Positions 1-38,641 of a stretch of 64,000 bases of DNA are shown in pieces (the stretch's first letter is position 1; the number at the start of each line of letters is the position of its first letter). The translations under genes and the position numbers were made by a program. The stretch covers positions 8,040 to 72,039 of the forward strand of contig CAZRJH010000005.1 in assembly GCA_964600575.1 (NCBI GenBank), in the 5' to 3' direction. The notes under the pieces are model-generated. The model ran no database searches. It was not told the origin of the DNA and worked only from the letters and a program-made list of their open reading frames with translations. Source of the DNA: an uncultured Gammaproteobacteria bacterium (lineage in GTDB: Bacteria; Patescibacteriota; Microgenomatia; UBA8517).

Positions 1-843
1 ACACTTCTTAAAGATGCAGGTTACCAACCATTCGTCTTAACAAAAAAAACTTATGTAGGCGGTGGAGTTTTTGACGGTGTCTGGAAATTTGACGGAGAGA
101 ACTTTGAGATTTTAGAAGAAAAAGTAAAAATGGATTTGGTCTACGATAGAAGTGCAGGCGTCAGCTTCCCGCCAAAAGATGACGGATGCATTTGGGTCAA
201 CAGAATCGATTTTAAAACCCTTTGTTGGGATAAGTGGGCTGGTTACGGAGAAATCGGGGAATATATGCCGCAAACCGTTTTGGTGGAGTCAGAAAACGAC
301 ATCGCAAAAGCCTGCGAAGAAATAAAAACAGATTGGATAGTTTTAAAACCGTTTAACGGATTAAAAGGTCTAGGTGTCTTTATAGGACCAAAAGACGAAG
401 CTGTAAAATTTCGCTTCCCCGAGAAATATAAAAAATATATCGCTCAGGAGTTTGTCGATACTTCCAAGGGAATAGTCGGAGTTACTCCCGAAAAACACGA
501 TTTGCGGGTTGCCGTTGTTAACGGGGAGGTTGTCTGGTGCCACGTAAGAGTTCCCGCAGAAGGGACTTTTCTTGCAAACGCGGCACAGGGGGGGAATTTG
601 ACGGAGGTAAATTACAATGCAGTTCCTTCGGAAATCAAAAGGGTTGTAGAAAAAGTATCCAAGATGTTTTACGAAAAATATGACAATCCGATATTCAGTT
701 TGGATTTTGGAATGAATTTTGACGGCAGGCCGTTAATATTCGAGATCAATGATCAGATAGGTTTTCCTAAGTGGGAAATGGAAAACAGAGATGTATTTTT
801 AAATGGTTTGGTTGCTAATTTCTCACATAAATTAGAAGAGTGA
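1..843 (+). CDS. RimK/GshB-family ATP-grasp ligase (5-prime partial; the frame is open from base 1)
   Basis: The frame of ORF 130..843 has no stop back to position 1, so the real start lies before the window. ATP-grasp motifs are present (DKW...L, LKPFNGLKGLGV, QEFV, FEINDQIGFP). Confidence 0.6.
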   Translation, partial: TLLKDAGYQPFVLTKKTYVGGGVFDGVWKFDGENFEILEEKVKMDLVYDRSAGVSFPPKDDGCIWVNRIDFKTLCWDKWAGYGEIGEYMPQTVLVESENDIAKACEEIKTDWIVLKPFNGLKGLGVFIGPKDEAVKFRFPEKYKKYIAQEFVDTSKGIVGVTPEKHDLRVAVVNGEVVWCHVRVPAEGTFLANAAQGGNLTEVNYNAVPSEIKRVVEKVSKMFYEKYDNPIFSLDFGMNFDGRPLIFEINDQIGFPKWEMENRDVFLNGLVANFSHKLEE

Positions 844-867: not shown

Positions 868-1434
868 ATGGAAAAAATAATCGATAGAACACCGGAAAGA
901 AATTTGGAAACTTTTAACAAATGGCTTAAGAACTTATCGGTGGAGGGAAAGGTGGAAGAGATAGATGCGGCCATCGTCCGTAATGTTTTAGAAATGGCCG
1001 GGGCAAATTTTGAGATAGGGGAGGTAGAACATAAATCGCTTGGTAAATATTCCAATAAAGGTAAAAGAGAGGGGTTGGACGCGGTTTGGGGAAAAGATAA
1101 AGTTGATACTTTTAAAACCTGGATAATCGGCGAATACATTCCTTACATCGAAAAATTTGCAGGGAGGGAACTCCATACACTTTATGATAGGGCCACCGAC
1201 ACTTACGACGATATTAAGCATTCGGGAATGATGCAGTTTTTTGGAGAGTTAACGGCTTTTGCCGCGGGTCAAATATCTTTTGAAAAATATCAGAGAATCA
1301 CCGAAAACCGATATAAAAAAGGAAAGACTTGGCAGTACGGAAATCGTGAAGAAATATATGAACCAAGCAAAAATGCAGCCTTTCCGGTAGACTTTCCCGT
1401 GAAGGCTATAGATAGGTTAAATGCCTCATTTTAG
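868..1434 (+). CDS. hypothetical protein
   Basis: 188-aa ORF with no recognisable motif; compact spacing after the upstream gene. Confidence 0.4.
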   Translation: MEKIIDRTPERNLETFNKWLKNLSVEGKVEEIDAAIVRNVLEMAGANFEIGEVEHKSLGKYSNKGKREGLDAVWGKDKVDTFKTWIIGEYIPYIEKFAGRELHTLYDRATDTYDDIKHSGMMQFFGELTAFAAGQISFEKYQRITENRYKKGKTWQYGNREEIYEPSKNAAFPVDFPVKAIDRLNASF

Positions 1435-2019: not shown

Positions 2020-2541
2020 TTATTGTTTTTTGCTGGCCTGATCTAATATGTAAACCAGCTTCTGCATGTTTGCATTCAATGTTCCTACTATTCCATACTG
2101 GGGTGCAATAAGGGCTCCAAGAACCTGTGCCAAAAGGGCATCGCGGCCGGGGAGTGTAGAAAGTTTTGTAAGATTTTCTTCGTTTTGGAACATGCCTTCG
2201 ACAACTCCGACTTTAAATTTGGGTTTGTCGTTTTCCTTAGAAAATTTACCAAGAACTTGGATAGGAGCAACTGCGTCTGCGTCAGCAATAACCAAGGCTG
2301 TTTGACCTGAAAGAACTGTGTCGGTTAAAACTTGTTCGTCGATTTTAGCAGCTTCTGCGGCACGCTTGAGTAGGGTATTTTTGACAACTACCATCCTGCC
2401 GCCAACTTCGGAAAGTTTGGCTTTAAGATCTTGTTGGGCTTTAACAGAGAGGCCTGAATAATTTACGAGGACCAAAGATTTAGCATCTTTAAGCTCCTTT
2501 GTTAGGTCTTCTACAAATGTTACTTTTTCTGCTTTTTTCAT
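2020..2541 (-). CDS. rplJ: 50S ribosomal protein L10
   Basis: N-terminal KAEKV..V..L...L..A.SLVLVNYSGLSV and MVVVKNTLLKRA; positioned upstream of rplL. Confidence 0.95.
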   Translation of the reverse strand: MKKAEKVTFVEDLTKELKDAKSLVLVNYSGLSVKAQQDLKAKLSEVGGRMVVVKNTLLKRAAEAAKIDEQVLTDTVLSGQTALVIADADAVAPIQVLGKFSKENDKPKFKVGVVEGMFQNEENLTKLSTLPGRDALLAQVLGALIAPQYGIVGTLNANMQKLVYILDQASKKQ

Positions 2542-2701
2542 AATAATCAGATTGTTATATAAATCCAGCGGAGTTAAAAAGAAGTCTTTTTGCCTCCAGC
2601 GTGACTTACAATGCGAAGCAGTGCCAAGCTCTGCTTATAGTTATGCGCGCTTTCTTAGGACAAAGGAAGTATAGCAGGGTATATGGGCGTAGGCAAGGGG
2701 A
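2542..2701 (-). promoter_or_regulatory. candidate L10 leader (long structured 5-prime UTR of rplJ)
   Basis: 160-nt non-coding gap upstream of rplJ containing the hairpin aagcag...ctgctt. L10(L12)4 autoregulatory leaders occupy this position in bacteria. Confidence 0.3.
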
Positions 2702-3130
2702 TTAACCGTCGGTTCTAGCCCGTTTAATAGTCTTAACATAGTCAATATCTCTTTGGTCAGTCATATCCAGGCCCTGCGAGACTGCTTGATCATAATCTGC
2801 TCTGTTCAAACCAGTGTAATCCAGCCCTTTAGGTTGGGCGTCCATTTGGCCAATCTGCACAGTCGCCCTACCTACTTTTCGACGATAGTCCTCGACTGTT
2901 ACTTTTCCACGGCGTGGGGCATTACTTTCGGACAATTGCTTGTCGGTCAGTTTTGTGCCTGTATGCTCTCTTAAACCATCCGTTTTTACGGTAACGGGGT
3001 GCCAATTTGCCCAAGCTTCATTTGAGTTAATTTCTCCGATTTCGTTGTCCACCTGATTTTGTTCGGTTATTCCGCCTGTGTCGAGCGGGTTGGGGTTTGC
3101 ATCTTGAATTTTTTGATTATCGTCCATCAT
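2702..3130 (-). CDS. hypothetical protein inserted between rplA and rplJ
   Basis: 142-aa ORF; its start overlaps the stop of the upstream ORF (ATGA coupling). No motif recognised. Confidence 0.5.
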   Translation of the reverse strand: MMDDNQKIQDANPNPLDTGGITEQNQVDNEIGEINSNEAWANWHPVTVKTDGLREHTGTKLTDKQLSESNAPRRGKVTVEDYRRKVGRATVQIGQMDAQPKGLDYTGLNRADYDQAVSQGLDMTDQRDIDYVKTIKRARTDG

Positions 3131-3756
3131 TCCTTAAAAGGTTTTGTTTCAATAATCGGCAGGGCTTTGTAGGTACCTCTCTCCATGGCCAAACTGGGCA
3201 CAAGTTCAACATACACATTTTCGAACTTGGATGAAGGAAGCGCTACCTGATCACGATTAAAAACGCTTTCCGCTTGTGGAGTTTCTTCTGGCGAAATTGT
3301 TTTGTAATACATCGGTCCGTGTGGACCCTCGACTTTTAAAAGCGATGTTCCATTCATTCCATCTACTAGTGCAGGATAAAATGAAGGACTCATTGTTCTT
3401 GGATCTTTGCCTTGGACTGTGTGAACCAGATCGACTACTCTTATTGCGTGTTTGGAGGGGTCTCCAACCATGTTCATTCTGGTAACTTGGAAGATTCTTC
3501 TCTCGCCTTTAAAGTGCTCGTTGTCTTCGGGTTGGGGTATGGACTCTGACTGGGGTTCCTCAACAACCTGTTTGGATTGACTTTCTTTTAGCGCTTCTGC
3601 AGCTTTTCTTTCATCTTCTATTTGTTCACCTCTAGTTTTTTCGTTAGGAATAAATGGTTTGTGATTGGCAATTGTTTCGTTCCAAAACTCTTCCTCCATT
3701 TTTGTTCCGGTTTGTTCAACTATCTGATCATGAAATGATGCACCTTCTTCGGCCAT
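3127..3756 (-). CDS. hypothetical protein inserted between rplA and rplJ
   Basis: 209-aa ORF, acidic/Lys-rich N-terminus, translationally coupled to 2702..3130. Confidence 0.5.
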   Translation of the reverse strand: MAEEGASFHDQIVEQTGTKMEEEFWNETIANHKPFIPNEKTRGEQIEDERKAAEALKESQSKQVVEEPQSESIPQPEDNEHFKGERRIFQVTRMNMVGDPSKHAIRVVDLVHTVQGKDPRTMSPSFYPALVDGMNGTSLLKVEGPHGPMYYKTISPEETPQAESVFNRDQVALPSSKFENVYVELVPSLAMERGTYKALPIIETKPFKE

Positions 3757-3801
3757 AATAAATCCATAGTAGGGAATTTCGTGAAAATTGTCAAAAGGGG
3801 G

Positions 3802-4578
3802 TTAGTTTATAGCCAATTTAACACTGGGGGACATTGTAGACTTAAGGTAGCCGCGAACGATGCTTCTCGCGCCTCCTAGAGCCTTTAGAATGGCTTCTAC
3901 ATTCTCTTTTATCTCTGTATCGGCTTGGCTATTTTTGCCGACTACAGTATGAACCAGGGGGGCTTCCTTTTCTGTCTTTATGGTTACCGCAGATGCCGAA
4001 AATCCTTTGGCTTTTTTAGGGTCGGCAACTAATGTTCCGTTTTTGGGGTTAGGCATTAAGCCTTTGGGTCCTAAAACTCTTGCAAAAGGAACAAGTTTAG
4101 GCATCATGTCAGGTGTGGCGACAAGTACATCAAAGTCGATTTTGCCTGCTTTAATTCTTTCGATTGTTTCGTCTGTCGCGATTTCTACTCTTTTTTCTTT
4201 TCCTGCGGTGTGGGGTAGGTTAACCTGTACACTTACGCCGACTTTTTTAACAACCAAGTGTAATTCCATTGTGCCGTCGAATTTGGAATAGGAGGTCTCT
4301 TTTACCAAAGAAATTGCTTTATCTAAGGGGTAGAGTTTGCCTGCTTCTATTTTGGCTTTAACTCCATGGTATTTTTGTGATCTAACCTTTTCTTTACCGG
4401 GTTTTTTGGATTCTTGAACTTCGGCAGACTCGGTAACAGGTGTTTCGGTTGTTTCTGTATCCACCATTTTCACGCGTGCGCCGCCTTTGAGTCCGCTAAT
4501 GTGGACTTTGTTTTCGTCTGCTTTTGTTGCCTGTTTGTGTTTGTCGTCGTTTTTTGACATATTAGTCGGTTTTGACAC
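3802..4578 (-). CDS. rplA: 50S ribosomal protein L1 (with about 55-aa Lys/Glu-rich N-terminal extension; start uncertain)
   Basis: Core matches L1 (LVATPDMMPKLVPFARVLGPKGLMPNPKNGT). The ORF overlaps the rplK 3-prime end. Confidence 0.9.
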   Translation of the reverse strand: MSKPTNMSKNDDKHKQATKADENKVHISGLKGGARVKMVDTETTETPVTESAEVQESKKPGKEKVRSQKYHGVKAKIEAGKLYPLDKAISLVKETSYSKFDGTMELHLVVKKVGVSVQVNLPHTAGKEKRVEIATDETIERIKAGKIDFDVLVATPDMMPKLVPFARVLGPKGLMPNPKNGTLVADPKKAKGFSASAVTIKTEKEAPLVHTVVGKNSQADTEIKENVEAILKALGGARSIVRGYLKSTMSPSVKLAIN

Positions 4579-4984
4579 CCATGCTTCTGGCTGTTCCTTC
4601 TACTATTTTCATTGCTGCTTCTACATTTTTTGTGTTCAAGTCGTCCATCTTATCTTCTGCAATAGCTTTAACTTGGTCTTTTGTAAGTTTTCCGGCTGTT
4701 TCTCTGGGGGTTTTACCTGAACCCTTTTCTATGCCTAAAGTCTTTTTGATCATGTCTGCGACAGGGGCTTTTTTGATTACAAAATCAAAACTTCTGTCTT
4801 CGTAGATTGTAATAACGGCGGGAACAACTTGTCCGCGCATATCTTTGGTTTTGTCGTTATATGCCTTAACAAACTCCATGATGGCTACACCATGCTGACC
4901 AAGAGCTGTTCCAACCGGAGGGGCGGGAGTTGCCTCTGCAGCCTTAAGGTTGATTTTTACGACTACTTTGATTTTTTTTGCCAT
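4562..4984 (-). CDS. rplK: 50S ribosomal protein L11
   Basis: Internal Met gives MAKKIKVVVKINLKAAEATPAPPVGTALGQHGV, the L11 signature. The ORF-track start at 5089 is an over-extension. Confidence 0.9.
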   Translation of the reverse strand: MAKKIKVVVKINLKAAEATPAPPVGTALGQHGVAIMEFVKAYNDKTKDMRGQVVPAVITIYEDRSFDFVIKKAPVADMIKKTLGIEKGSGKTPRETAGKLTKDQVKAIAEDKMDDLNTKNVEAAMKIVEGTARSMGVKTD

Positions 4985-5156
4985 ATTTATAAAAAGTTGG
5001 TACGCAAAAAGGGAAACTAACTGAAGTTTCGACCTTTCGACCAGCTCAAGGCTAGCTTTGCGTCTGCCACAAATTAATGTGGTATGCAAACTATATCACG
5101 CATGAGCAGAAATATCAAATGCTTAAGTTTAAAAAAACCGAGGGTTGAAGCCGAAA

Positions 5157-6416
5157 TTACCAAGGGGTAACCGTTAATACAAAGCTCTTTGAAGTTACTC
5201 CACCAGCCTGATCTCTGGCGGTTACCTTTATTTTAAATATTCCAAATCTGCGGGGGGCAATTCCCGAATATGTACAGTTATAAGTTTTTCTTTGTGCCGA
5301 AACATTTGTTGTGCAAGTCACATTGTTCAACCACGAAGGTAGTCCTGTTGTGTTGATTGCCACTGTATCGTTTATGTTTACGTCGTATACAGATATATTC
5401 ATGGAATATCTTCTGCCTCCGTGAGCAATTGGAAGGCTTCTTGTGGTTATAACGGGTGCAACATTAGCCACTGGTGATGGTGTCGGGCTAGGAGTTGCCG
5501 ATGCACTAGGAGTAGGCGTAGATGTAGCTATAGGCGTAGGTGTCGGGGACATACTCGGTGTTGGTGTAGGTGTTCCGTAGTTACCCAAGACATTTGCTAC
5601 TGCATAGTAGTTGTCAAAAAAACCTGTGGTAGCAGGATATGCGCCGGAGTTTTCTACAACAAGCCTGGGGAATGTTCCGTCACCGTTAAGGGGTGAATAT
5701 AGCATATCAAGAATGTTTACAAATGTGCTTGAGGTTCCGTCGTAGAGGTATACAAGAAATTCGTTGCCCGTTCTTTGTAGCTTAACCCTCTGAGGAGAAT
5801 TGAGCTGTATAGGTCTGGATACAATTTTTGTGGAATTGGCGGGTGTGTTGTCAGGGCTGGTCCAGACTTCTATAAATTCGGATGAACCGACTTTTGAACG
5901 TCTAACGGATATTGACCCAGCCGGGGAAAACTTAAGCTCTTGCCATCCGCTTTCTGTACTTATGCCAAGAAGATCAACTTCAACCGAGAAATCACCCGTT
6001 ATCTGGGGGATTTGGTAATTAATAAGTGCCTGAACAACAATATCGTTTCCGCCGACTCCGTCTGCGCCCACAGGAACATCTGATCTCAATCTTTGGTTAT
6101 CAATACTTGCCATAGATCCCATGGTTCCGGACCAATTCCACTTGGAAGGATCCAATTGGTTAAACGGTTCATAAATGGTGACTTGTGTAATAGGCCTTGG
6201 TGTAGGCGTGGGTGTAGATGTCCAAACGGGCGTAGGTGTAGGGCTTGGTGTAAAAGGCGGCGTTACAGGAATGGTGGGTGTAGGTGTAACAGGGGAAGTG
6301 ACAGGCGAGGTTATAGGGAATGCTCCATAAGCACGTGAGGCCGTAAGAGTGAATAATGGTAATATTATTGTGGAAAACAAAACGGCATAGACGCCCGCTT
6401 TTGAATTTAATCTCAT
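5157..6416 (-). CDS. secreted surface protein with Pro/Thr-rich linkers and C-terminal Ig-like domain
   Basis: N-terminal signal peptide, TPTPTP linkers at both ends, C-terminal beta-rich module. Confidence 0.6.
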   Translation of the reverse strand: MRLNSKAGVYAVLFSTIILPLFTLTASRAYGAFPITSPVTSPVTPTPTIPVTPPFTPSPTPTPVWTSTPTPTPRPITQVTIYEPFNQLDPSKWNWSGTMGSMASIDNQRLRSDVPVGADGVGGNDIVVQALINYQIPQITGDFSVEVDLLGISTESGWQELKFSPAGSISVRRSKVGSSEFIEVWTSPDNTPANSTKIVSRPIQLNSPQRVKLQRTGNEFLVYLYDGTSSTFVNILDMLYSPLNGDGTFPRLVVENSGAYPATTGFFDNYYAVANVLGNYGTPTPTPSMSPTPTPIATSTPTPSASATPSPTPSPVANVAPVITTRSLPIAHGGRRYSMNISVYDVNINDTVAINTTGLPSWLNNVTCTTNVSAQRKTYNCTYSGIAPRRFGIFKIKVTARDQAGGVTSKSFVLTVTPW

Positions 6417-6417
6417 A

Positions 6418-7575
6418 ATGCGGAATTATAGGAGTTTTATTCTATTAAGTCAAATATTGTTTGCGTGCGTGATTTTAGTGTTCGGGAACTGGGCGGTTGT
6501 TACTTATGAGATACCAAAGGTTATTGTTTTTCAATGGGTCGTTCGTATTCTTGCCTTGATTTTGGCCTACTCATTTTTTAGAAAACCGCGTAAATGGAGA
6601 GTTGACCCTTTGCTTGCAAAAATGATTCTGACTTTTGTCGCGGTTGTGTTTGTAAGTGCTTTTTTTGGAGTCAATATTGCCAAAAGTTTTATTGGTAATT
6701 TTTACAGAGGCGACGGAATAGTAACTTTCTTGAGCTTGGTCGGCTTTTCTTTTATAGTTAGTTACTTTTGGAAAGAAGAATTTAATATCTACTTTGCCGA
6801 GGTCCTGTTTTGGGTCTCAACGCTTTTGGCGGGATTTTCATTGTTTTCTCCTTTTGTACCGCAACTTTCAAATATAAGTGCGGCAGGTTTCGGTAATTCC
6901 GTATTTTTAGCCGGATTTTTAGTCACAGCTTTACCTTTCTCTTTTTATTATGTGCGGGAAAATATCAAAAGGAGATTTATCTTTGGATTTATTGTTCAGG
7001 TAATTTCCTTGTTCTTTTTAAATGCAACCGCCTCTGTAATAGTACTTTTTGTATTCGTATTTTTGATACTAATGCGCTATGCAAAATCAAAAAGAAAAAA
7101 TCTTTTTGGCGCACTACTATTGCTATCGGGTTTGGCCATCGGACTTTTGTGGCTAAGAGATTACAGTATTCAGAGTTCAACTTCGTTAATAGCCGAAGGC
7201 AGGGCCAGAATATTTATAAACGGTTTACAGGGTTTTGCCCAAAGCTCGCTTTTGGGATACGGGTGGGCCAACTTTGACGCAGCCTTTCAAAAAGGAACAT
7301 GGCCTATGCGTTTAAATAACGATGTTTATGTAGACAAAGCGCATTCGGAGTTTCTGGAGGTCCTGGTTGCTACCGGTGCGATAGGTTTTTTGGCGTACCT
7401 TGCCTTTATTTACAACCTATATCGCAAACTTAAAACGGGTCTCAAGACCGATTGGGGCCATACTTTGTTTGCAGTATTTGTTATATATCTTCTACACTCT
7501 CAAACAAATGTAACCTCGATTACGGAGCAAATACTCTTCTGGTTTGTGGTCGGGGTTTCGCTACGAGAAATTTAG
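6418..7575 (+). CDS. O-antigen ligase/polymerase-like (Wzy_C family) membrane protein
   Basis: Multi-TM protein; motif DKAHSEFLEVLVATGAIGFLAYLAF matches the O-antigen ligase family. Confidence 0.6.
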   Translation: MRNYRSFILLSQILFACVILVFGNWAVVTYEIPKVIVFQWVVRILALILAYSFFRKPRKWRVDPLLAKMILTFVAVVFVSAFFGVNIAKSFIGNFYRGDGIVTFLSLVGFSFIVSYFWKEEFNIYFAEVLFWVSTLLAGFSLFSPFVPQLSNISAAGFGNSVFLAGFLVTALPFSFYYVRENIKRRFIFGFIVQVISLFFLNATASVIVLFVFVFLILMRYAKSKRKNLFGALLLLSGLAIGLLWLRDYSIQSSTSLIAEGRARIFINGLQGFAQSSLLGYGWANFDAAFQKGTWPMRLNNDVYVDKAHSEFLEVLVATGAIGFLAYLAFIYNLYRKLKTGLKTDWGHTLFAVFVIYLLHSQTNVTSITEQILFWFVVGVSLREI

Positions 7576-34189: not shown

Positions 34190-34260
34190 GCAGGCCAAGA
34201 GGGAATCGAACCCCCAATAGCGGTTTTGGAGACCGCTGTTATACCATTTAACTATTGGCC
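34190..34260 (-). tRNA. tRNA-Trp (anticodon CCA)
   Basis: Cloverleaf: acceptor AGGCCAA/TTGGCCT, D-arm GTTAAATGGTATAAC, anticodon loop CTCCAAA, T-arm GGGGTTCGATTCCCTC. Confidence 0.85.
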
Positions 34261-34335
34261 TTTGAATTAAGACCGCAAAACACGGCCCTCCTTGCCTTGT
34301 AGTATATCAATTTTGACCCACTTGGAGTATCCCGT

Positions 34336-35004
34336 TTAGGCTTCCGCCTTGTGTTTTGGGTTTCTGGTAAAGCAAACTCTTATGTTTGTTTCACCCAGAT
34401 CGGCCGAGTTGGCCCTAAATCTATCCATTACTGGATTGTCTTCGTCTAATCTAAATCCGTTTTCGGCCATCCAAACATTTATTGCCCGTTTTGCTTGCCT
34501 TTGATACGTTGCGGCTTCTTGGGTTCTTTTGTCCAAAACAATAACAATACTTTGGGGCTTTTCGGAGCTAAGAAATTTTCTTAGATCATCGTTAAATATT
34601 TTATCATCGACTATGTCTTTTTGGTTTGGTGCGACAACCGATATTACATCGGGGAAAAAGGTGGGTACTTCGTCGGCGGGTGAAGAAAAAAGATCAAGCT
34701 CCGCGTCCGTACTTACTGTTTTTATACCTCTATGGACCATTCCCGATTCTCCTTCGGATTTCATTGCGGGGTCACAGCCTACCCAAAGATCTAGAGCGTT
34801 AAGTTTCCACGAAAGTCTTGGTTCTTTACCGCAGCCTATATCAAATATTGTGAATTGAGCTTTGTGGAGAGATTCATCGAACTTTTCTTTTTTAGGATTA
34901 AGGTTGGCGGCAAGATATGTTCCAAGCTTGTGTTCTGATCCTTGCACAATAACCAGAGGCATTTTTCTTACTTTTACTTCGGGTGCGTTGTCGATTCCTG
35001 ACAT
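34336..35004 (-). CDS. hypothetical protein
   Basis: 222-aa ORF; contains FDIGCGKEP (weak methyltransferase-like glycine motif). Confidence 0.45.
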   Translation of the reverse strand: MSGIDNAPEVKVRKMPLVIVQGSEHKLGTYLAANLNPKKEKFDESLHKAQFTIFDIGCGKEPRLSWKLNALDLWVGCDPAMKSEGESGMVHRGIKTVSTDAELDLFSSPADEVPTFFPDVISVVAPNQKDIVDDKIFNDDLRKFLSSEKPQSIVIVLDKRTQEAATYQRQAKRAINVWMAENGFRLDEDNPVMDRFRANSADLGETNIRVCFTRNPKHKAEA

Positions 35005-35036
35005 TTCTCAAAAAAGATTATACAGGAATTATTATT

Positions 35037-35684
35037 ATGCAAAAGTTGTATCATATGGCTATGGCAGAAGAGAATTTAACAGCAGGATCAAAAGAAGGTA
35101 GAACCGAGGCTTTAAACAAAATTGTAGAAAAGTTTAGGTATCAACCAATTTCTGCGGATGAGGCCAGATCTCAAGGGATAGATTCCGGATCGTTGCATAG
35201 CAGAATGGTTTCAATAAGAAACGATGAAGTTGTGGGGGATTATTTCGTAATGCGCAAATCCGCAGTGGAAAGCGGCAAAACCGGACCAAACGGTTATTTT
35301 CCCGAAGGTAGTCTTAAAGCCCCGGAAATCTTGGACAACAACCAACTGGATGCAGGTGTTCTTGCTTATCTCAAAACCAGGGAAGCACATTTAACTCTAA
35401 AAGCCAGGGAACTCGCACATAAAGGCAGAATGGGAAATGTAGAAGAGCACGAAGCAATGAGAGTGGGTATAGCCATTAGGGTTTTAACAGGGGAAAATAC
35501 GGATTCCGATCACACTCGTTTTTTGGCGGAGCAAATGGACAAAATGAAGCAGGAAGCAATGGATTCTTATTGGTTGGATCCTAGAATGAAAGAGGAAAAA
35601 AGAGTTTTGGGGGAATATTACGACAAGATTAAACAGAATGTTACAACTAGATTTGCTCCAAAAAGAAGTTTATTTGAGCTTTGA
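35037..35684 (+). CDS. hypothetical protein (internal Met chosen as start to avoid overlap with the divergent gene)
   Basis: ORF 34983..35684; no motif recognised. Confidence 0.4.
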   Translation: MQKLYHMAMAEENLTAGSKEGRTEALNKIVEKFRYQPISADEARSQGIDSGSLHSRMVSIRNDEVVGDYFVMRKSAVESGKTGPNGYFPEGSLKAPEILDNNQLDAGVLAYLKTREAHLTLKARELAHKGRMGNVEEHEAMRVGIAIRVLTGENTDSDHTRFLAEQMDKMKQEAMDSYWLDPRMKEEKRVLGEYYDKIKQNVTTRFAPKRSLFEL

Positions 35685-35855
35685 AGATTCTTTGTGAGGT
35701 TGGGACTTTCTGCAGACTTTGCAATATTTGGCAATTTGGAGCTTGCCTTTGCCTTTTGTGTCCATATTAACTTTATTCCTCTCTGTAATGTAGTTTTGGC
35801 TTTTACAGACAGTGCAAATCAATGCTACAAGTTCGCGGGCTCCTCTTTTTGCCAT
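35670..35855 (-). CDS. rpmG: 50S ribosomal protein L33
   Basis: MAKRGARELVALICTVCKSQNYITERNK...KYCKVCRKSQPHKE: two CxxC pairs and the L33 pattern. Confidence 0.85.
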   Translation of the reverse strand: MAKRGARELVALICTVCKSQNYITERNKVNMDTKGKGKLQIAKYCKVCRKSQPHKESSKLK

Positions 35856-35921
35856 ATGAGGCTATTTTACACGATTGGTGGAGGTTTGGGAAGATGAAGT
35901 CGTAAATGTCGAACTTAATCT

Positions 35922-35993
35922 GAGCCTGAGGTGGGGATTGAACCCACGACCCCGTCATTACCAATGACGTGCTCTACCACTGAGCTACCCAGG
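35922..35993 (-). tRNA. tRNA-Thr (anticodon GGU)
   Basis: GCCTGGGTAGCTCAGTGGTAGAGCACGTCATTGGTAATGACG...GGTTCAATCC; anticodon loop TTGGTAA. Confidence 0.85.
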
Positions 35994-36039
35994 CGGGACG
36001 CATAATTATACCAAACCAAAAGTTGGTATACTGGTACAA

Positions 36040-36987
36040 ATGAAAGTTTGGCAGGTTACACTTTTGATACTCTCGGCAAGTCTCCTTTTTATGATTCTTT
36101 ACAAAATCAGTCCCGAAACGGGTGCAAATTTGCCCGTTCGGACCCAAAACCCTGTTCAGAATTTTATTACGACAGTAACAGAAAACTCCTCCAAAAAACC
36201 TATAAAAATACTTTTGACTGGCGATATCATGGTGGGTAGAAGCGTTATGACCAAAAGTTTGGCGGCAGATAACCCCGGGTATCCGTTTGAACAAGTATCT
36301 CAAAGACTCAAGTCCGCCGACTTAGTTTTTGCCAATTTAGAAACCCCTGTCATAGAAAATTGTCCTAAACACGACTCTGGGTTTAAATTTTGTGCCGACC
36401 CCAAAATGCTTAAAGGTTTATTAGATTCAGGGATAGATGTTGTTAATTTGGCCAATAACCACACGCTTAATTGGGGAGAGGCCGGCATAACAGAAACAGA
36501 AAAACATTTGGACGAGGCAGGTATTGCATATACGGGCCGTAACAATCTGATTGCCAAAGAAGTTAACGGGACTAAATTTGGATTCTTGGGATTTGATTAT
36601 GTTGCTACACATCCCAAACAAAGAGATTTGGATCTTATTACGGAATCAAAACAAAAAGTAGATATTTTAATAGTGGCTATCCATTGGGGAGTGGAATATA
36701 CAGATAAACCCAACACTTTCCAAAAAACGGTTGCAAAAAGTATATTGGAAGCCGGCGCAGATGTAATTTCTGGAACCCATCCACATTGGGTCCAACCCCA
36801 AGAAACAGTGGACGGCAAGCCTGTTTTTTATTCTTTGGGCAACTTTGTTTTTGATCAAATGTGGAGCGAGGGCACAAAAACAGGTGCGGTTGCGGAGCTT
36901 ACTTATCAAAACAAAGTCATAACGGGGGACAAAATCTACAAGATTTATATGGAAGAATTTGCCCAGCCTAAATTTTTGGAGAATTAA
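36040..36987 (+). CDS. CapA/PGA_cap family metallophosphatase-like protein (poly-gamma-glutamate capsule biosynthesis-type)
   Basis: N-terminal signal/TM; motifs LLTGDIMVGR, NLANNH, VAIHWGVEY, GTHPHWVQP, SLGNFVFDQ. Confidence 0.8.
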   Translation: MKVWQVTLLILSASLLFMILYKISPETGANLPVRTQNPVQNFITTVTENSSKKPIKILLTGDIMVGRSVMTKSLAADNPGYPFEQVSQRLKSADLVFANLETPVIENCPKHDSGFKFCADPKMLKGLLDSGIDVVNLANNHTLNWGEAGITETEKHLDEAGIAYTGRNNLIAKEVNGTKFGFLGFDYVATHPKQRDLDLITESKQKVDILIVAIHWGVEYTDKPNTFQKTVAKSILEAGADVISGTHPHWVQPQETVDGKPVFYSLGNFVFDQMWSEGTKTGAVAELTYQNKVITGDKIYKIYMEEFAQPKFLEN

Positions 36988-37337
36988 ACTTCGATCGGTT
37001 GTCTAAAAGGAGAAATTGTTGTTATTCCTTCCTGATACAAGACTTGGCCGTGACCTTTTATAACAAGTGCCATTAGTTTTCCGTCGGGAGAAGTTTCTAC
37101 TCCTTGGACAACTCCGTTTATAGCCTGGCTTTCGTTATCGGATTTAAAAGATACAGACATATGCAAAAGCAGGTTGGGATCTTCTTTTATTCTGCCTTGG
37201 GTAAACAGCTGGCCTTCCAAGCTGTGTAAAAGTTGGAATTCCGCGTCAAGGCTTTCGGTGTGGCTAAAACCGGACAATTGAGAAGAAATCCCAATATATT
37301 CTGCAGCTATTTCTTTTATGGGTCTTTCGGTTGTCAT
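36984..37337 (-). CDS. hypothetical protein
   Basis: 117-aa ORF. Confidence 0.4.
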   Translation of the reverse strand: MTTERPIKEIAAEYIGISSQLSGFSHTESLDAEFQLLHSLEGQLFTQGRIKEDPNLLLHMSVSFKSDNESQAINGVVQGVETSPDGKLMALVIKGHGQVLYQEGITTISPFRQPIEV

Positions 37338-37382
37338 GTTTGGGATTATATTACTCGTTTCCCAATAAAACCACCCTTAAAT

Positions 37383-38381
37383 TCAGTAGACAAAAGAAGC
37401 ATCTCCAAAGCTAAAAAATCTATATTTTTCGTCGACTGCTGTTTTGTAAACTTTATTAAGTGTCTCCATCCCTGTAAACGCACCAACCAAAGCTAAGAGA
37501 GTGGATTTTGGCAAGTGAAAGTTGGTAATTAGGGCGTCGATAAATTTAAATTTGTAACCCGGGTAGATATAAATATTTGTCTCTCCCGATTTTTTAGGGA
37601 AAGATTCCAATACCCGTACCGTAGTTGTTCCTACTGCAATTATTCTTTTGCCTTGTTTTTTGGCAAGATTGAGCCTATCAAAAGTGCCGTCGTCCACCTC
37701 GTATTTTTCTGAGTGTATTTTGTGCTTGGTTATATCGGTTTCTTTTACAGGGGCAAAAGTTCCAAGCCCTACATGCAAAGTTACATATTCAACTTGAACA
37801 CCCTTGGATTTTATTTTTTCCAGAAGCTCTTTTGTAAAATGCAAACCTGCTGTTGGTGCTGCAACCGAGCCTTTGAATTTTGCATAAACTGTTTGATACT
37901 TCTTTCTAATTTCTGACTCCTTTTCTGAACTTTTAATATACGGGGGGAGGGGTGTAACCCCTTTTGCGTCCATTGTTGCAAAGATGTTGTTTCTAGTTTC
38001 GTGCGTTTTTAATATTGCAGTTTGGTCCTCGTGCCCCGTGCATTCAAATTCTAAGTTTTCGAATTTTATCTTTTGGCCTACTTTTACACCGGGCTTTGTG
38101 AGAACTTTCCAGACTCCCGTTTCTGTTTCTTCCAAAAGTAGCACTTCAATCTTTCCGCCTGTATCTTTTACACCAAAAAATCTGGCGGGGAAGACTTTGG
38201 TTTGGTTTAAGACTAAAACATCGTTGGGAGTTAGGTAATCAACAATTTTGCGGAAAATTTTATGTTCTATTTCTCCCGTATTTTTGTTTACAACCATAAG
38301 GCGACTTCTGTCACGGGGGTTTGCAGGGGAGTTGGCTACAAGTTCCTTGGGAAGTTGATAATCGAAAAGGGAGATATCCAT
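37383..38381 (-). CDS. queA: S-adenosylmethionine:tRNA ribosyltransferase-isomerase
   Basis: MDISLFDYQLPKELVANSPANPRDRSRLMV...GTTTVRVLES. The ORF-track N-terminal extension to 38537 overlaps tRNA-Tyr and is rejected. Confidence 0.9.
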   Translation of the reverse strand: MDISLFDYQLPKELVANSPANPRDRSRLMVVNKNTGEIEHKIFRKIVDYLTPNDVLVLNQTKVFPARFFGVKDTGGKIEVLLLEETETGVWKVLTKPGVKVGQKIKFENLEFECTGHEDQTAILKTHETRNNIFATMDAKGVTPLPPYIKSSEKESEIRKKYQTVYAKFKGSVAAPTAGLHFTKELLEKIKSKGVQVEYVTLHVGLGTFAPVKETDITKHKIHSEKYEVDDGTFDRLNLAKKQGKRIIAVGTTTVRVLESFPKKSGETNIYIYPGYKFKFIDALITNFHLPKSTLLALVGAFTGMETLNKVYKTAVDEKYRFFSFGDASFVY

Positions 38382-38458
38382 ACTATTGTGTGCCTGGGAC
38401 AGGTCTAAAGATCCCCGCAGGGGAATTCGTATGCGTATGCATCGAAGACTGTTCCGTG

Positions 38459-38543
38459 TGCTGAGGACAGGATTCGAACCTATGTAGCCCTTTCGGACGC
38501 GAGATTTACAGTCTCGTGCGTTTGACCGCTCCGCCACCTCAGC
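38459..38543 (-). tRNA. tRNA-Tyr (anticodon GUA, long variable arm)
   Basis: GCTGAGG...CGAGACTGTAAATCTCG...GGTTCGAATCC...CCTCAGC, 85 nt. Confidence 0.8.
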
Positions 38544-38569
38544 GCGACGATATTTTATAGGAAATTATG

Positions 38570-38641
38570 AGCCGACGAAAGGATTCGGACCTTCGACCCC
38601 CTGTTTACAAAACAGGTGCTCTACCACTGAGCTACATCGGC
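38570..38641 (-). tRNA. tRNA-Thr (anticodon UGU)
   Basis: GCCGATGTAGCTCAGTGGTAGAGCACCTGTTTTGTAAACAGG...; anticodon loop TTTGTAA. Confidence 0.85.

What the first reader, a model, noticed from the sequence alone, without database searches (positions are those of the whole stretch)
2702..3756. Two unknown, translationally coupled genes inserted inside the rplKA-rplJL cluster
In almost all bacteria rplA is followed directly by the L10 leader and rplJ. Here 1.05 kb encoding two coupled ORFs (209 and 142 aa; ATGA overlap) sits between rplA and the rplJ leader on the same strand. These genes are therefore embedded in one of the most highly transcribed operons. They are hydrophilic and acidic, with no recognisable domain.
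Basis: partly seen in the sequence, partly recalled or inferred. Interest (0 to 1): 0.55.

Follow-up and report, generated by a model that had tools for sequence, protein, structure and literature searches.

The report
Fast-evolving orphan gene pair before rplJ
Two real, fast-evolving genes for small acidic proteins of no known family sit, with their own promoter, between the ribosomal protein genes L1 and L10 of a Woesebacteria (CPR) bacterium, at a site where related genomes carry all sorts of accessory genes; their function remains unknown, so this is a modest curiosity.

Summary
On the minus strand, ORF1 (3756-3127, 209 aa) and ORF2 (3130-2702, 142 aa) overlap by ATGA and lie between rplA and rplJ. 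Both are acidic (pI 5.0) and match nothing in Pfam, NCBIfam, PHROGs, PADLOC or the PDB. They are genuine genes. Codon usage is host-like, and in the sister clade dN/dS is 0.06-0.09, the same as rplA.

The family is tiny: a few Woesebacteria contigs out of about 15 billion proteins. ORF2 is 70% identical to its sister-clade copy, and an 81-aa homologue sits before rplJ in a lineage with only 63% L10 identity. ORF1 is about 23% identical to its positional counterpart, while L1, L10 and L11 are 88-91%.

The pair has its own conserved sigma-70-type promoter 9 nt before the ORF1 ATG. rplJ keeps a separate promoter and a divergent, covarying L10 leader. No terminator lies between these units.

In other Woesebacteria the rplA-rplJ gap ranges from 82 bp to 5 kb and holds HicAB, AbiE, MNT/HepT and an IS1595 transposase.

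Best reading: a vertically inherited, clade-specific protein pair, possibly linked to the ribosomal stalk. That functional link is weak. Interest is modest.

The parts
5090..5118 (-). Promoter-like site upstream of rplK (TTGATA-17-TATAGT, TG-extended); start of the rplKA unit
4562..4984 (-). rplK (L11), 140 aa
   Evidence: 91% identical to L001/L004
3802..4560 (-). rplA (L1), 252 aa counted from the ATG that relatives use; N-terminal extension
3766..3794 (-). Sigma-70-type promoter of the ORF1-ORF2 unit: TTGACA-17 nt-TACTAT, 9 nt before the ATG, no Shine-Dalgarno (leaderless or near-leaderless mRNA, inferred)
   Evidence: conserved in WIN, L001, L002, L004 and L024, although L024 has a different upstream gene
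3127..3756 (-). ORF1, 209 aa, pI 5.05. Predicted N-terminal helices (8-30, 42-59), an acidic linker and a beta-rich C-terminal half. Hyperdivergent between sister lineages
3127..3130 (-). ATGA stop/start overlap (translational coupling, inferred from the sequence); conserved in relatives
2702..3130 (-). ORF2, 142 aa, pI 5.0. Residues 1-98 predicted disordered; C-terminal two-helix hairpin (110-141, pLDDT 81-87). Conserved core AP..V..IGQ...Q.DID[YF]VKT.K
2668..2696 (-). rplJ promoter (TTGCCT-17-TATACT, TG-extended), directly after the ORF2 stop
2591..2661 (-). Core of the L10 leader RNA (GUCCUAAGAAAG - covarying helix with a variable hairpin - GUAAGUC...GGAGG), a divergent RF00557 type
   Evidence: not found by Rfam in the window
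2020..2541 (-). rplJ (L10), 173 aa
1599..2003 (-). rplL (L7/L12), 134 aa
1553..1573 (-). Intrinsic-terminator-like hairpin plus U-run after rplL; the only such site between rplA and the end of rplL

Best explanation
ORF1 and ORF2 are genuine cytoplasmic protein genes restricted to one small clade of Candidatus Woesebacteria (Microgenomates, CPR/Patescibacteria). They form a small unit of their own in the spacer between the rplKA and rplJL transcription units.

Shown:
- Both evolve as proteins under purifying selection.
- A sigma-70-type promoter ends 9 nt before the ORF1 ATG and is conserved independently of what lies upstream.
- ORF2 overlaps the ORF1 stop by ATGA.
- No terminator-like site separates rplA, the pair and rplJ.
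- rplJ keeps its own promoter and an L10(L12)n-type leader directly after the ORF2 stop.
- The ORF2 family stays attached to the 5' side of the rplJ promoter in a lineage with only 63% L10 identity, where ORF1 is absent, and in a contig where rplA is not the upstream gene.

Inferred:
- The mRNA is leaderless or nearly so, ORF2 is made by termination-reinitiation, and transcripts run on into rplJL.
- ORF1 and ORF2 act together. ORF1 is predicted to have a helical N-terminus and a beta-rich C-terminal half. ORF2 is predicted to be a disordered acidic chain ending in a two-helix hairpin. The N-terminal 25 aa of ORF2 track the ORF1 allele type.
- The pair is a vertically inherited accessory factor co-expressed with the L10/L12 stalk proteins and probably connected to them or to translation. 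It is not mobile cargo.

The descriptive part is about 0.9 likely. The stalk/translation link is a weak inference, about 0.3-0.4.
For: Coding status:
- Codon scores of 0.369 and 0.239 bits/codon lie within the host range.
- dN/dS for ORF1' is 0.086, 0.058 and 0.070, and for ORF2 0.089, against 0.086 for rplA in the same genome pairs.

Conserved arrangement:
- L001, L002, L004/L025, L024, L026 and L030 carry the pair; L027-L029 carry ORF2 before rplJ with a truncated upstream ORF at the contig edge.

ORF2 family:
- An exhaustive HMMER search of 1.84 billion representative proteins finds only P0003, P0004 and P0006, plus one spurious repeat protein.
- P0006 is 33% identical to ORF2 (pairwise E 8e-12). 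It lies 25 nt after rplA and 84 nt before rplJ, in a lineage whose L10 is 63% identical.

Promoter:
-. Similar -10 boxes 6-9 nt before the ATG are seen in L023, L007, L008 and L014.

Flanking elements:
- No terminator-like site in 3802-2541.
- rplJ promoter and leader.

Not mobile:
- Host-like GC and GC3.
- No flanking repeats.
- No phage or viral relatives.
- No defence-family match.

Structure:
-.
Against: - There is no experimental or homology-based link to the ribosome.
- Both proteins are acidic and evolve fast, unlike typical ribosomal proteins.
- The family is absent from most Woesebacteria examined. L011, L016 and L018 have 82-176 bp between rplA and rplJ.
- The same gap hosts obviously unrelated cargo in relatives, so position alone is weak evidence of function.
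- ORF1 is about 23% identical between lineages whose L1 and L10 are 88-90% identical. That is unexpected for a housekeeping partner of conserved proteins.
- Structure models are of low confidence (pLDDT 44.6 and 55.7).
- ORF1 was searched only with the word-indexed tool, not with the exhaustive HMMER scan.
Confidence: 0.4

Rival explanations
1. The pair consists of clade-specific cytoplasmic proteins whose function has nothing to do with translation. Their position is incidental: the rplA-rplJ spacer in Woesebacteria is simply a permissive, well-expressed site where new genes persist.
For: The gap ranges from 82 bp to 5 kb and contains unrelated genes in relatives. The nusG-rplK adjacency is also broken by unrelated genes in this clade. 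The pair has its own promoter. No similarity to any translation factor was found.
Against: The ORF2 family has stayed immediately 5' of the rplJ promoter across lineages with 63% L10 identity, and independently of rplA and ORF1. The pair is on the same strand and is not insulated by a terminator.
Confidence: 0.3
2. The pair is a novel conflict-type two-gene cassette (toxin-antitoxin, toxin-immunity or anti-phage) that landed in an integration hot spot. The hyperdivergence of ORF1 reflects diversifying selection or allele swapping.
For: - The same gap holds HicA/HicB (L015), AbiEii (L010, L019), MNT/HepT (L017) and an IS1595 transposase (L012).
- The pair has a 4-nt overlap and its own promoter.
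- Distribution is patchy.
- Divergence is mosaic. ORF1 differs between WIN and the sister clade, and the ORF2 middle and C-terminus differ in L024.
- A 700-bp tract is 100% identical between L025 and L026, inside flanks of 84-96% identity.
Against: - No match in PADLOC, Pfam, NCBIfam or PHROGs.
- Both products are acidic, and no DNA-binding or toxin-like fold is predicted.
- Codon usage is host-like and there are no repeats or mobile-element signs.
- Inheritance looks vertical at one site. In L023 the ORF2 homologue stands alone, which is not expected of an addiction pair.
- The known TA cargo in relatives is mostly on the opposite strand.
Confidence: 0.2
3. The act of translating the ORFs is what matters, not their products. 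Translation would keep ribosomes on the long read-through transcript between rplA and rplJ, blocking Rho-dependent polarity or decay, by analogy with the B. subtilis rplJL leader peptide.
For: In many Woesebacteria a same-strand hydrophilic ORF of unrelated sequence (72-201 aa) fills the gap and ends just before the rplJ promoter. In B. subtilis, translation of a leader peptide raises rplJL expression about two-fold by countering Rho (PMC4538822).
Against: dN/dS of 0.06-0.09 shows that the amino-acid sequences of ORF1' and ORF2 are constrained. rplJ has its own promoter downstream of the ORFs, so rplJL expression need not depend on read-through. The B. subtilis peptide lies inside the leader, downstream of the terminator, which is a different location.
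Confidence: 0.08
4. The ORFs are not genes but chance open frames in a long leader or spacer.
For: No homologues outside a tiny clade; low-confidence structure models.
Against: - Frame-specific, host-like codon usage.
- Strong purifying selection.
- Length, start context and ATGA overlap are conserved in relatives.
- A 209-codon open frame at 42% GC is very unlikely by chance.
Confidence: 0.02

Closest known systems
E. coli-type rplKA / rplJL organisation (two adjacent transcription units, PL11 and PL10, with partial read-through; established knowledge)
   Same: rplK-rplA is followed by a separate promoter and an L10(L12)n-binding leader before rplJ-rplL. No terminator lies between the units.
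   Different: A 1.05-kb, self-promoted two-gene unit lies between the rplA stop and the L10 promoter. rpoBC does not follow rplL; convergent ATP-grasp genes do.
L10 leader, Rfam RF00557 (applies to the flanking RNA element, not to the ORFs)
   Same: It has the motif CC.AAGA.AG - helix - CCGAGG directly upstream of rplJ and a covarying helix. Many relatives add a terminator hairpin, as in the B. subtilis attenuator (PMC4538822).
   Different: It scores below the gathering threshold (25.4 vs 44 bits in L008) and is not detected at all in the window. The window version has only a weak A/U hairpin where relatives have a GC-rich terminator.
B. subtilis rplJL leader peptide (Yakhnin et al. 2015, PMC4538822)
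   Same: It is a translated ORF upstream of rplJ on the same strand that could influence rplJL expression in cis.
   Different: The B. subtilis ORF is short and lies inside the leader, after the terminator; a divergent, shorter peptide from another species could partly replace it. Here the ORFs are 209 and 142 aa, lie upstream of the rplJ promoter, and are constrained at protein level.
Type II/IV toxin-antitoxin pairs found in the same gap of relatives (HicAB, AbiE, MNT/HepT)
   Same: Two small genes with a 4-nt overlap and their own promoter, patchily distributed, at the same genomic hot spot.
   Different: There is no family match and both proteins are acidic. No DNA-binding or nuclease fold is predicted. 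The pair is on the same strand as the ribosomal protein genes, looks vertically inherited, and the ORF2 homologue occurs alone in L023.
CarD / TRCF RNA-polymerase-interacting domain
   Same: ORF1 residues 120-175 align weakly with Thermus CarD residues 27-82 (VE.PH, PEE.P). The predicted C-terminal half of ORF1 is beta-rich.
   Different: The E-value is 1.4-1.6 (12 bits), which is not significant. Pfam reports no PF02559 hit even at E 10, and the sister-clade ORF1' profile does not hit CarD. This is treated as an unsupported lead.

Membership tests
Type II toxin-antitoxin module | Sequence or profile match of either partner to a known toxin or antitoxin family | tested here: not met
   No Pfam, NCBIfam, PHROG or PADLOC hit for ORF1, ORF2, ORF1', P0004 or P0006
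Type II toxin-antitoxin module | Two small adjacent or overlapping genes with their own promoter | tested here: met
   ATGA overlap; conserved promoter
Type II toxin-antitoxin module | Antitoxin with a DNA-binding domain, and a folded toxin | tested here: inconclusive
   AF2 models are of low confidence. ORF2 shows only a C-terminal two-helix hairpin, and there are no Foldseek matches
Type II toxin-antitoxin module | One product is toxic and the other neutralises it | not testable with these tools
   Requires expression experiments
Ribosomal or ribosome-associated protein | Conserved across the lineage that shares the ribosome | tested here: not met
   The ORF2 family occurs in only a few closely related lineages plus L023. 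It is absent from, or unrecognisable in, L005-L020, and L011, L016 and L018 have an almost empty gap
Ribosomal or ribosome-associated protein | Encoded in and co-transcribed with a ribosomal protein operon | tested here: inconclusive
   Same strand, no terminator, directly 5' of the rplJ promoter. Co-transcription was not measured
Ribosomal or ribosome-associated protein | Physical presence on ribosomes | not testable with these tools
   Needs ribosome purification and mass spectrometry, or cryo-EM
rplJL leader peptide / regulatory uORF | Lies within the rplJL leader transcript, downstream of its promoter | tested here: not met
   ORF2 stops at 2702, upstream of the rplJ promoter at 2696-2668
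rplJL leader peptide / regulatory uORF | Peptide sequence weakly constrained or unconstrained | tested here: not met
   dN/dS is 0.06-0.09
L10 leader RF00557 (element at 2661-2591) | Covariance-model score at or above the gathering threshold | tested here: not met
   No hit in the window. Relative L008 scores 25.4 bits against a threshold of 44. None at gathering in 11 relatives
L10 leader RF00557 (element at 2661-2591) | Conserved motif with a covarying helix directly upstream of rplJ | tested here: met
   In 19 Woesebacteria sequences, 4 of the 5 helix pairs show compensatory changes. The motif aligns to the RF00557 consensus
CarD_TRCF RNAP-interacting domain | Significant profile match to PF02559 or to CarD structures | tested here: not met
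   PDB sequence hit at E 1.4 only; Pfam gives nothing at E up to 10; ORF1' does not hit CarD

The most novel reading that the evidence does not exclude
The ORF2 family may be a previously unrecognised, very fast-evolving acidic protein of the Woesebacteria translation apparatus. For example, it could be a partner or regulator of the L10/L12 stalk, with its C-terminal two-helix hairpin docking on L10 or L12. Under this reading, the unrelated-looking small leaderless ORFs that precede the rplJ promoter in many other Woesebacteria are its orthologues diverged beyond recognition, and ORF1 is a clade-specific, hypervariable partner. This would be a lineage-specific ribosome accessory protein in CPR bacteria, whose ribosomes are already known to be unusual.
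Probability: 0.12. Interest if true: 0.65.

Novelty: new variant of a known kind. Interest (0 to 1): 0.35.

Why it matters
If the pair, or the ORF2 family alone, proved to be stalk- or ribosome-associated, it would add a lineage-specific component to the already unusual ribosomes of CPR bacteria. It would also give a concrete, co-expressed candidate to look for in CPR ribosome preparations.

Even without a function, the locus is a compact natural example of three things. First, a universally conserved gene cluster (rplKAJL) has become a hot spot for accessory genes. Second, adjacent genes show very unequal rates of change: ORF1 is 23% identical between lineages, ORF2 70% and ribosomal proteins about 90%, all under purifying selection, with evidence of recent recombination. 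Third, it shows leaderless-type promoters placed directly on start codons in Woesebacteria.

As it stands this is one more orphan gene pair in a phylum full of orphans, so the practical importance is limited.

Tried and rejected
1. Family assignment. Pfam, NCBIfam, PHROGs and PADLOC gave nothing for ORF1, ORF2, ORF1', P0004 or P0006.

2. Sequence search of the PDB. Only noise came back: CarD at E 1.4 for ORF1, a xylanase at E 1.7 for ORF2, and L24e at E 0.39 for ORF1'. The CarD lead was rejected because neither ORF1' nor Pfam supports it.

3. AlphaFold2 and Foldseek. The models are of low confidence (pLDDT 44.6 and 55.7) and no match reaches E <= 0.001.

4. Wider homologue searches. The word-indexed search, run three times, and the exhaustive HMMER scan for ORF2 found only P0003, P0004, P0006 and P0007. 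P0005, a 615-aa repeat protein, is a spurious hit driven by its repeats.

5. JGI metagenome scans with ORF2 patterns and with the conserved promoter sequence gave nothing.

6. Phage or viral origin. IMG/VR and INPHARED gave no hits.

7. Mobile-element signatures. There are no flanking direct or inverted repeats.

8. Paralogues in the window. None were found.

9. Homology of ORF1 with ORF1'. Shuffling gives z = 1.2-1.8, which is not significant. hhalign gives E 0.002 at the identical register 130-153. The best hit of L024 ORF1' in the whole six-frame window falls on ORF1 residues 20-32, in register. I take this as probable but unproven homology.

10. Homology of ORF2 with the small pre-rplJ ORFs of other Woesebacteria. 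It is not significant. hmmsearch gives E >= 0.35. These ORFs rank 4th and 5th of 1017 at E 3.5-5. There is a faint chain P0006-L006-L010 at E 0.02-0.03 in a set of 13 sequences.

11. Literature search. Searches listed no paper on genes inserted between rplA and rplJ in Patescibacteria.
Full report
**Observation.** All genes below are on the minus strand. The window reads nusG (8250-7606), a Wzy_C-like gene on the opposite strand, then a 419-aa Pro/Thr-rich ORF. These are followed by rplK (4984-4562), rplA (4560-3802), ORF1 (3756-3127, 209 aa) and ORF2 (3130-2702, 142 aa). After a 160-nt spacer come rplJ (2541-2020), rplL (2003-1599) and a terminator-like hairpin at 1573-1553. The ORF1 stop and the ORF2 start overlap as ATGA. 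Both products are acidic and hydrophilic: pI 5.05 and 5.01, GRAVY -0.77 and -1.10. Neither matches anything in Pfam, NCBIfam, PHROGs or PADLOC.

**Are they genes?** Yes.
- A codon model trained on 43 long ORFs of the window scores ORF1 at 0.369 and ORF2 at 0.239 bits per codon. Host genes average 0.298 +/- 0.065, and every other frame of either ORF scores at or below -0.33. GC and GC3 are host-like.
- Relatives give direct evidence of selection. Between L001, L004 and L024, the positional counterpart of ORF1 (called ORF1' here) has dN/dS of 0.086, 0.058 and 0.070. ORF2 has 0.089. rplA in the same genome pair has 0.086.

**Who has them?** By its ribosomal proteins, the organism is a Candidatus Woesebacteria (Microgenomates, CPR); the best named hit is GW2011_GWB1_39_10, with L10 74% identical.
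- The pair is extremely rare. The word-indexed search of 5.8 billion protein clusters returns only ORF1 itself.
- For ORF2 that search returns one relative, P0003, at 70% identity.
- An exhaustive HMMER scan of 1.84 billion representatives adds only P0004 (97 aa), P0006 (81 aa) and one spurious repeat protein.
- All true relatives sit at the same place. L001, L002, L004/L025, L026 and L030 have rplA, a 206-aa ORF, a 139-aa ORF and then rplJ where the contig reaches that far; L027-L029 carry the 139-aa ORF before rplJ with a truncated upstream ORF at the contig edge.
- L024 has the 206-aa ORF and a 97-aa ORF2 before rplJ, but its upstream gene is not rplA.
- In L023, whose L10 is only 63% identical, the 81-aa homologue of the C-terminal half of ORF2 stands alone. 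It lies 25 nt after rplA and 84 nt before rplJ.
- No relatives turn up in JGI metagenomes, IMG/VR or GenBank phages.

**Unequal divergence.** Against the sister clade, L11, L1 and L10 are 91%, 88% and 90% identical and ORF2 is 70%. ORF1 is only about 23% identical in a global alignment.
- At DNA level, identity falls from about 80% to about 40% exactly at codon 4 of ORF1. It recovers near codon 40 of ORF2.
- Shuffling tests do not make the ORF1/ORF1' similarity significant (z = 1.2-1.8).
- Only short, same-register matches remain. One is MEE.FW.E....H at residues 20-32, which is also the best six-frame hit of L024 ORF1' anywhere in the window. The other is residues 130-153, by hhalign at E 0.002.
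- ORF1 and ORF1' also share length, start context and the ATGA junction. I therefore regard them as probable, very diverged homologues.
- Scaled to rplA or ORF2, ORF1 is roughly 3-8 times more diverged on the branch separating the window from its sister clade than its own within-clade rate predicts. This suggests either an episodic burst or replacement by a divergent allele.
- Recombination does act here. L025 and L026 share a 700-bp tract of 100% identity, covering the 3' half of ORF1' and all of ORF2, inside flanks of 84-96% identity.
- ORF2 is itself modular. P0004 keeps the N-terminal 25 residues, diverges in the middle and lacks the C-terminal 45 residues. P0006 has only the C-terminal half.

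**Regulatory anatomy.** A sigma-70-type promoter (TTGACA, 17 nt, TACTAT) ends 9 nt before the ORF1 ATG, and there is no Shine-Dalgarno sequence.
- This promoter is almost invariant in the window, L001, L002, L004 and L024. In L024, conservation begins exactly at the -35 region, because the upstream gene there is different. The pair therefore has its own promoter and probably a leaderless or near-leaderless mRNA. That last point is inferred.
- Directly after the ORF2 stop lies a second promoter (2696-2668), followed by a conserved RNA motif at 2661-2591: GUCCUAAGAAAG, a helix enclosing a variable hairpin, GUAAGUC, then GGAGG.
- Across 19 Woesebacteria sequences, 4 of the 5 helix pairs show compensatory changes.
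- Rfam finds nothing in the window or at gathering threshold in 11 relatives. The L008 version does align to the L10 leader RF00557 at 25.4 bits (gathering 44), through the same motif and a terminator.
- This is therefore a divergent L10(L12)n leader, of the attenuator type described for B. subtilis in many relatives (PMC4538822).
- No terminator-like site lies between rplA and rplJ. Read-through from rplKA, and from the ORF1 promoter into rplJL, is plausible but not shown.

**Context in the lineage.** In 16 other Woesebacteria loci where both genes were found, the rplA-rplJ distance ranges from 82 bp to 5 kb. In a 17th, L017, no rplA lies within 6 kb upstream of rplJ.
- The cargo includes HicA/HicB (L015), AbiEii nucleotidyltransferase toxins (L010, L019), an MNT/HepT pair upstream of rplJ in L017 and an IS1595 transposase plus an HD-domain protein (L012). 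It also includes an AAA/DUF4143 ATPase and winged-helix proteins (L019, L020).
- The spacer is thus a hot spot for accessory genes. The general rule that rplA abuts the L10 leader fails in this class.
- Many loci also carry a same-strand hydrophilic ORF of 72-201 aa that ends just before the rplJ promoter. It often starts MAE, MSE or MAD, with a -10 box 6-9 nt upstream of the ATG.
- These ORFs are not demonstrably related to ORF2 or to each other, although faint signals exist.

**Structure.** AlphaFold2 gives low-confidence models.
- ORF1 (pLDDT 44.6) is predicted to have two N-terminal helices, an acidic linker and a beta-rich C-terminal half.
- ORF2 (pLDDT 55.7) is predicted to be disordered up to residue 98 or so. 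It ends in a two-helix hairpin at 110-141 with pLDDT 81-87.
- Foldseek against the PDB finds nothing meaningful.
- A weak sequence resemblance of ORF1 residues 120-175 to the CarD RNA-polymerase-interacting domain (E 1.4) is not supported by ORF1' or by Pfam.

**Interpretation.** What is shown:
- a real, translationally coupled gene pair with its own promoter;
- purifying selection on both genes;
- restriction to a small clade;
- a fixed position on the 5' side of the rplJ promoter.

I infer that the two products act together and that the unit is vertically inherited rather than mobile. The grounds are host-like codon usage, no flanking repeats, no viral or defence-family homology, and a stable location even where rplA or ORF1 is missing. 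Its co-expression with L10/L12, and its persistent linkage to rplJ, make a stalk- or translation-related accessory role the best single guess. Confidence in that functional link is low.

The main rivals are:
- an unrelated cytoplasmic function, with the position incidental;
- a novel TA- or conflict-type cassette, favoured by the hot spot, the mosaic divergence and the recombination tract, but lacking any family, charge or fold signature;
- a purely cis-acting role of translation, which is contradicted by dN/dS.

**Novelty and score.** The proteins form an undescribed family, and the evolutionary pattern at the locus is unusual. However, orphan genes are very common in CPR genomes, the site is demonstrably permissive, and no mechanism can be demonstrated. 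I rate this a new variant of a known kind of situation (accessory genes lodged in a conserved ribosomal gene cluster), with interest 0.35.

Noticed in passing
window 2591-2661 (-), with promoter 2668-2696; L008 5862-5994: A divergent L10 (rplJ) leader RNA that Rfam does not detect in the window. A 5-bp helix covaries across 19 Woesebacteria sequences, and the motif aligns to RF00557 below threshold in L008. Relatives come in two forms: one with a GC-rich terminator after the core (attenuator-like), and a short one ending directly in GAGGAAU-ATG.
   Followed up: partly
loci L005-L020, between rplA and rplJ: In Woesebacteria the rplA-rplJ spacer is an accessory-gene hot spot ranging from 82 bp to 5 kb. 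It holds HicAB (L015), AbiEii (L010, L019), an IS1595 transposase plus an HD-domain protein (L012), an AAA/DUF4143 ATPase and Trans_reg_C proteins (L019, L020). L017, where no rplA was found within 6 kb, has MNT/HepT upstream of rplJ.
   Followed up: yes
L005 5645-5869, L006 5557-5805, L007 5636-5863, L008 5621-5839, L009 5618-5863, L010 5628-5912, L013 5608-5871, L014 5271-5876, L023 96-341: A small hydrophilic same-strand ORF ends just before the rplJ promoter in many Woesebacteria. It often starts MAE, MSE or MAD, with a -10 box 6-9 nt before the ATG (leaderless style). The sequences are mutually unrelated or only faintly related.
   Followed up: partly
L025 3728-4428 vs L026 3728-4428; L025/L026 about 1260-2040: A 700-bp tract of 100% identity (the 3' half of ORF1' plus ORF2) lies inside flanks of 84-96% identity. 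A block of only 60-79% identity lies in the neighbouring 410-aa Pro/Thr-rich gene. Both point to recent recombination among strains at this locus.
   Followed up: partly
window 130-843 (+), 868-1434 (+); L025 5744-8420: Several RimK-like ATP-grasp genes converge on rplL, and this arrangement is conserved across Woesebacteria (52-87% identity). rpoBC does not follow rplL. A 188-aa unknown ORF between rplL and the ATP-grasp genes is clade-specific.
   Followed up: partly
window 5157-7575: The nusG-rplK adjacency is also interrupted in this clade. The intervening genes are a Wzy_C (O-antigen ligase-like) membrane protein on the plus strand (6418-7575) and a 419-aa Pro/Thr-rich ORF with a hydrophobic N-terminus (6416-5157, minus strand) that has no family match.
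   Followed up: partly
window 3802-4560 (-): L1 carries an N-terminal extension of roughly 35-40 residues relative to the TIGR01169 register. It starts MSKNDDKHKQATKADENKVHI and is conserved in the sister clade. The whole protein scores below the equivalog cutoff (133.6 vs 216.3 bits).
   Followed up: no
L004, L006, L012, L016 (GTDB records CAZRGC01, CAZBTH01, CAZTGB01, CAZOVJ01): MAG records titled 'uncultured Gammaproteobacteria bacterium' carry ribosomal proteins 58-90% identical to this Woesebacteria window. The record titles look mislabelled.
   Followed up: no
window 34190-38641 (-): Four tRNA genes (Trp-CCA, Thr-GGT, Tyr-GTA, Thr-TGT). tRNA-Trp lies about 26 kb from nusG rather than next to secE-nusG as in many bacteria.
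   Followed up: no
L005 4703-5533 (-) and L007 4250-5176 (-), each with a 65-67-aa downstream partner: An unannotated, homologous pair of opposite-strand genes (276/308 aa plus a small acidic ORF) recurs in the rplA-rplJ gap of two relatives. It has no Pfam match and may be another uncharacterised two-gene cassette.
   Followed up: no
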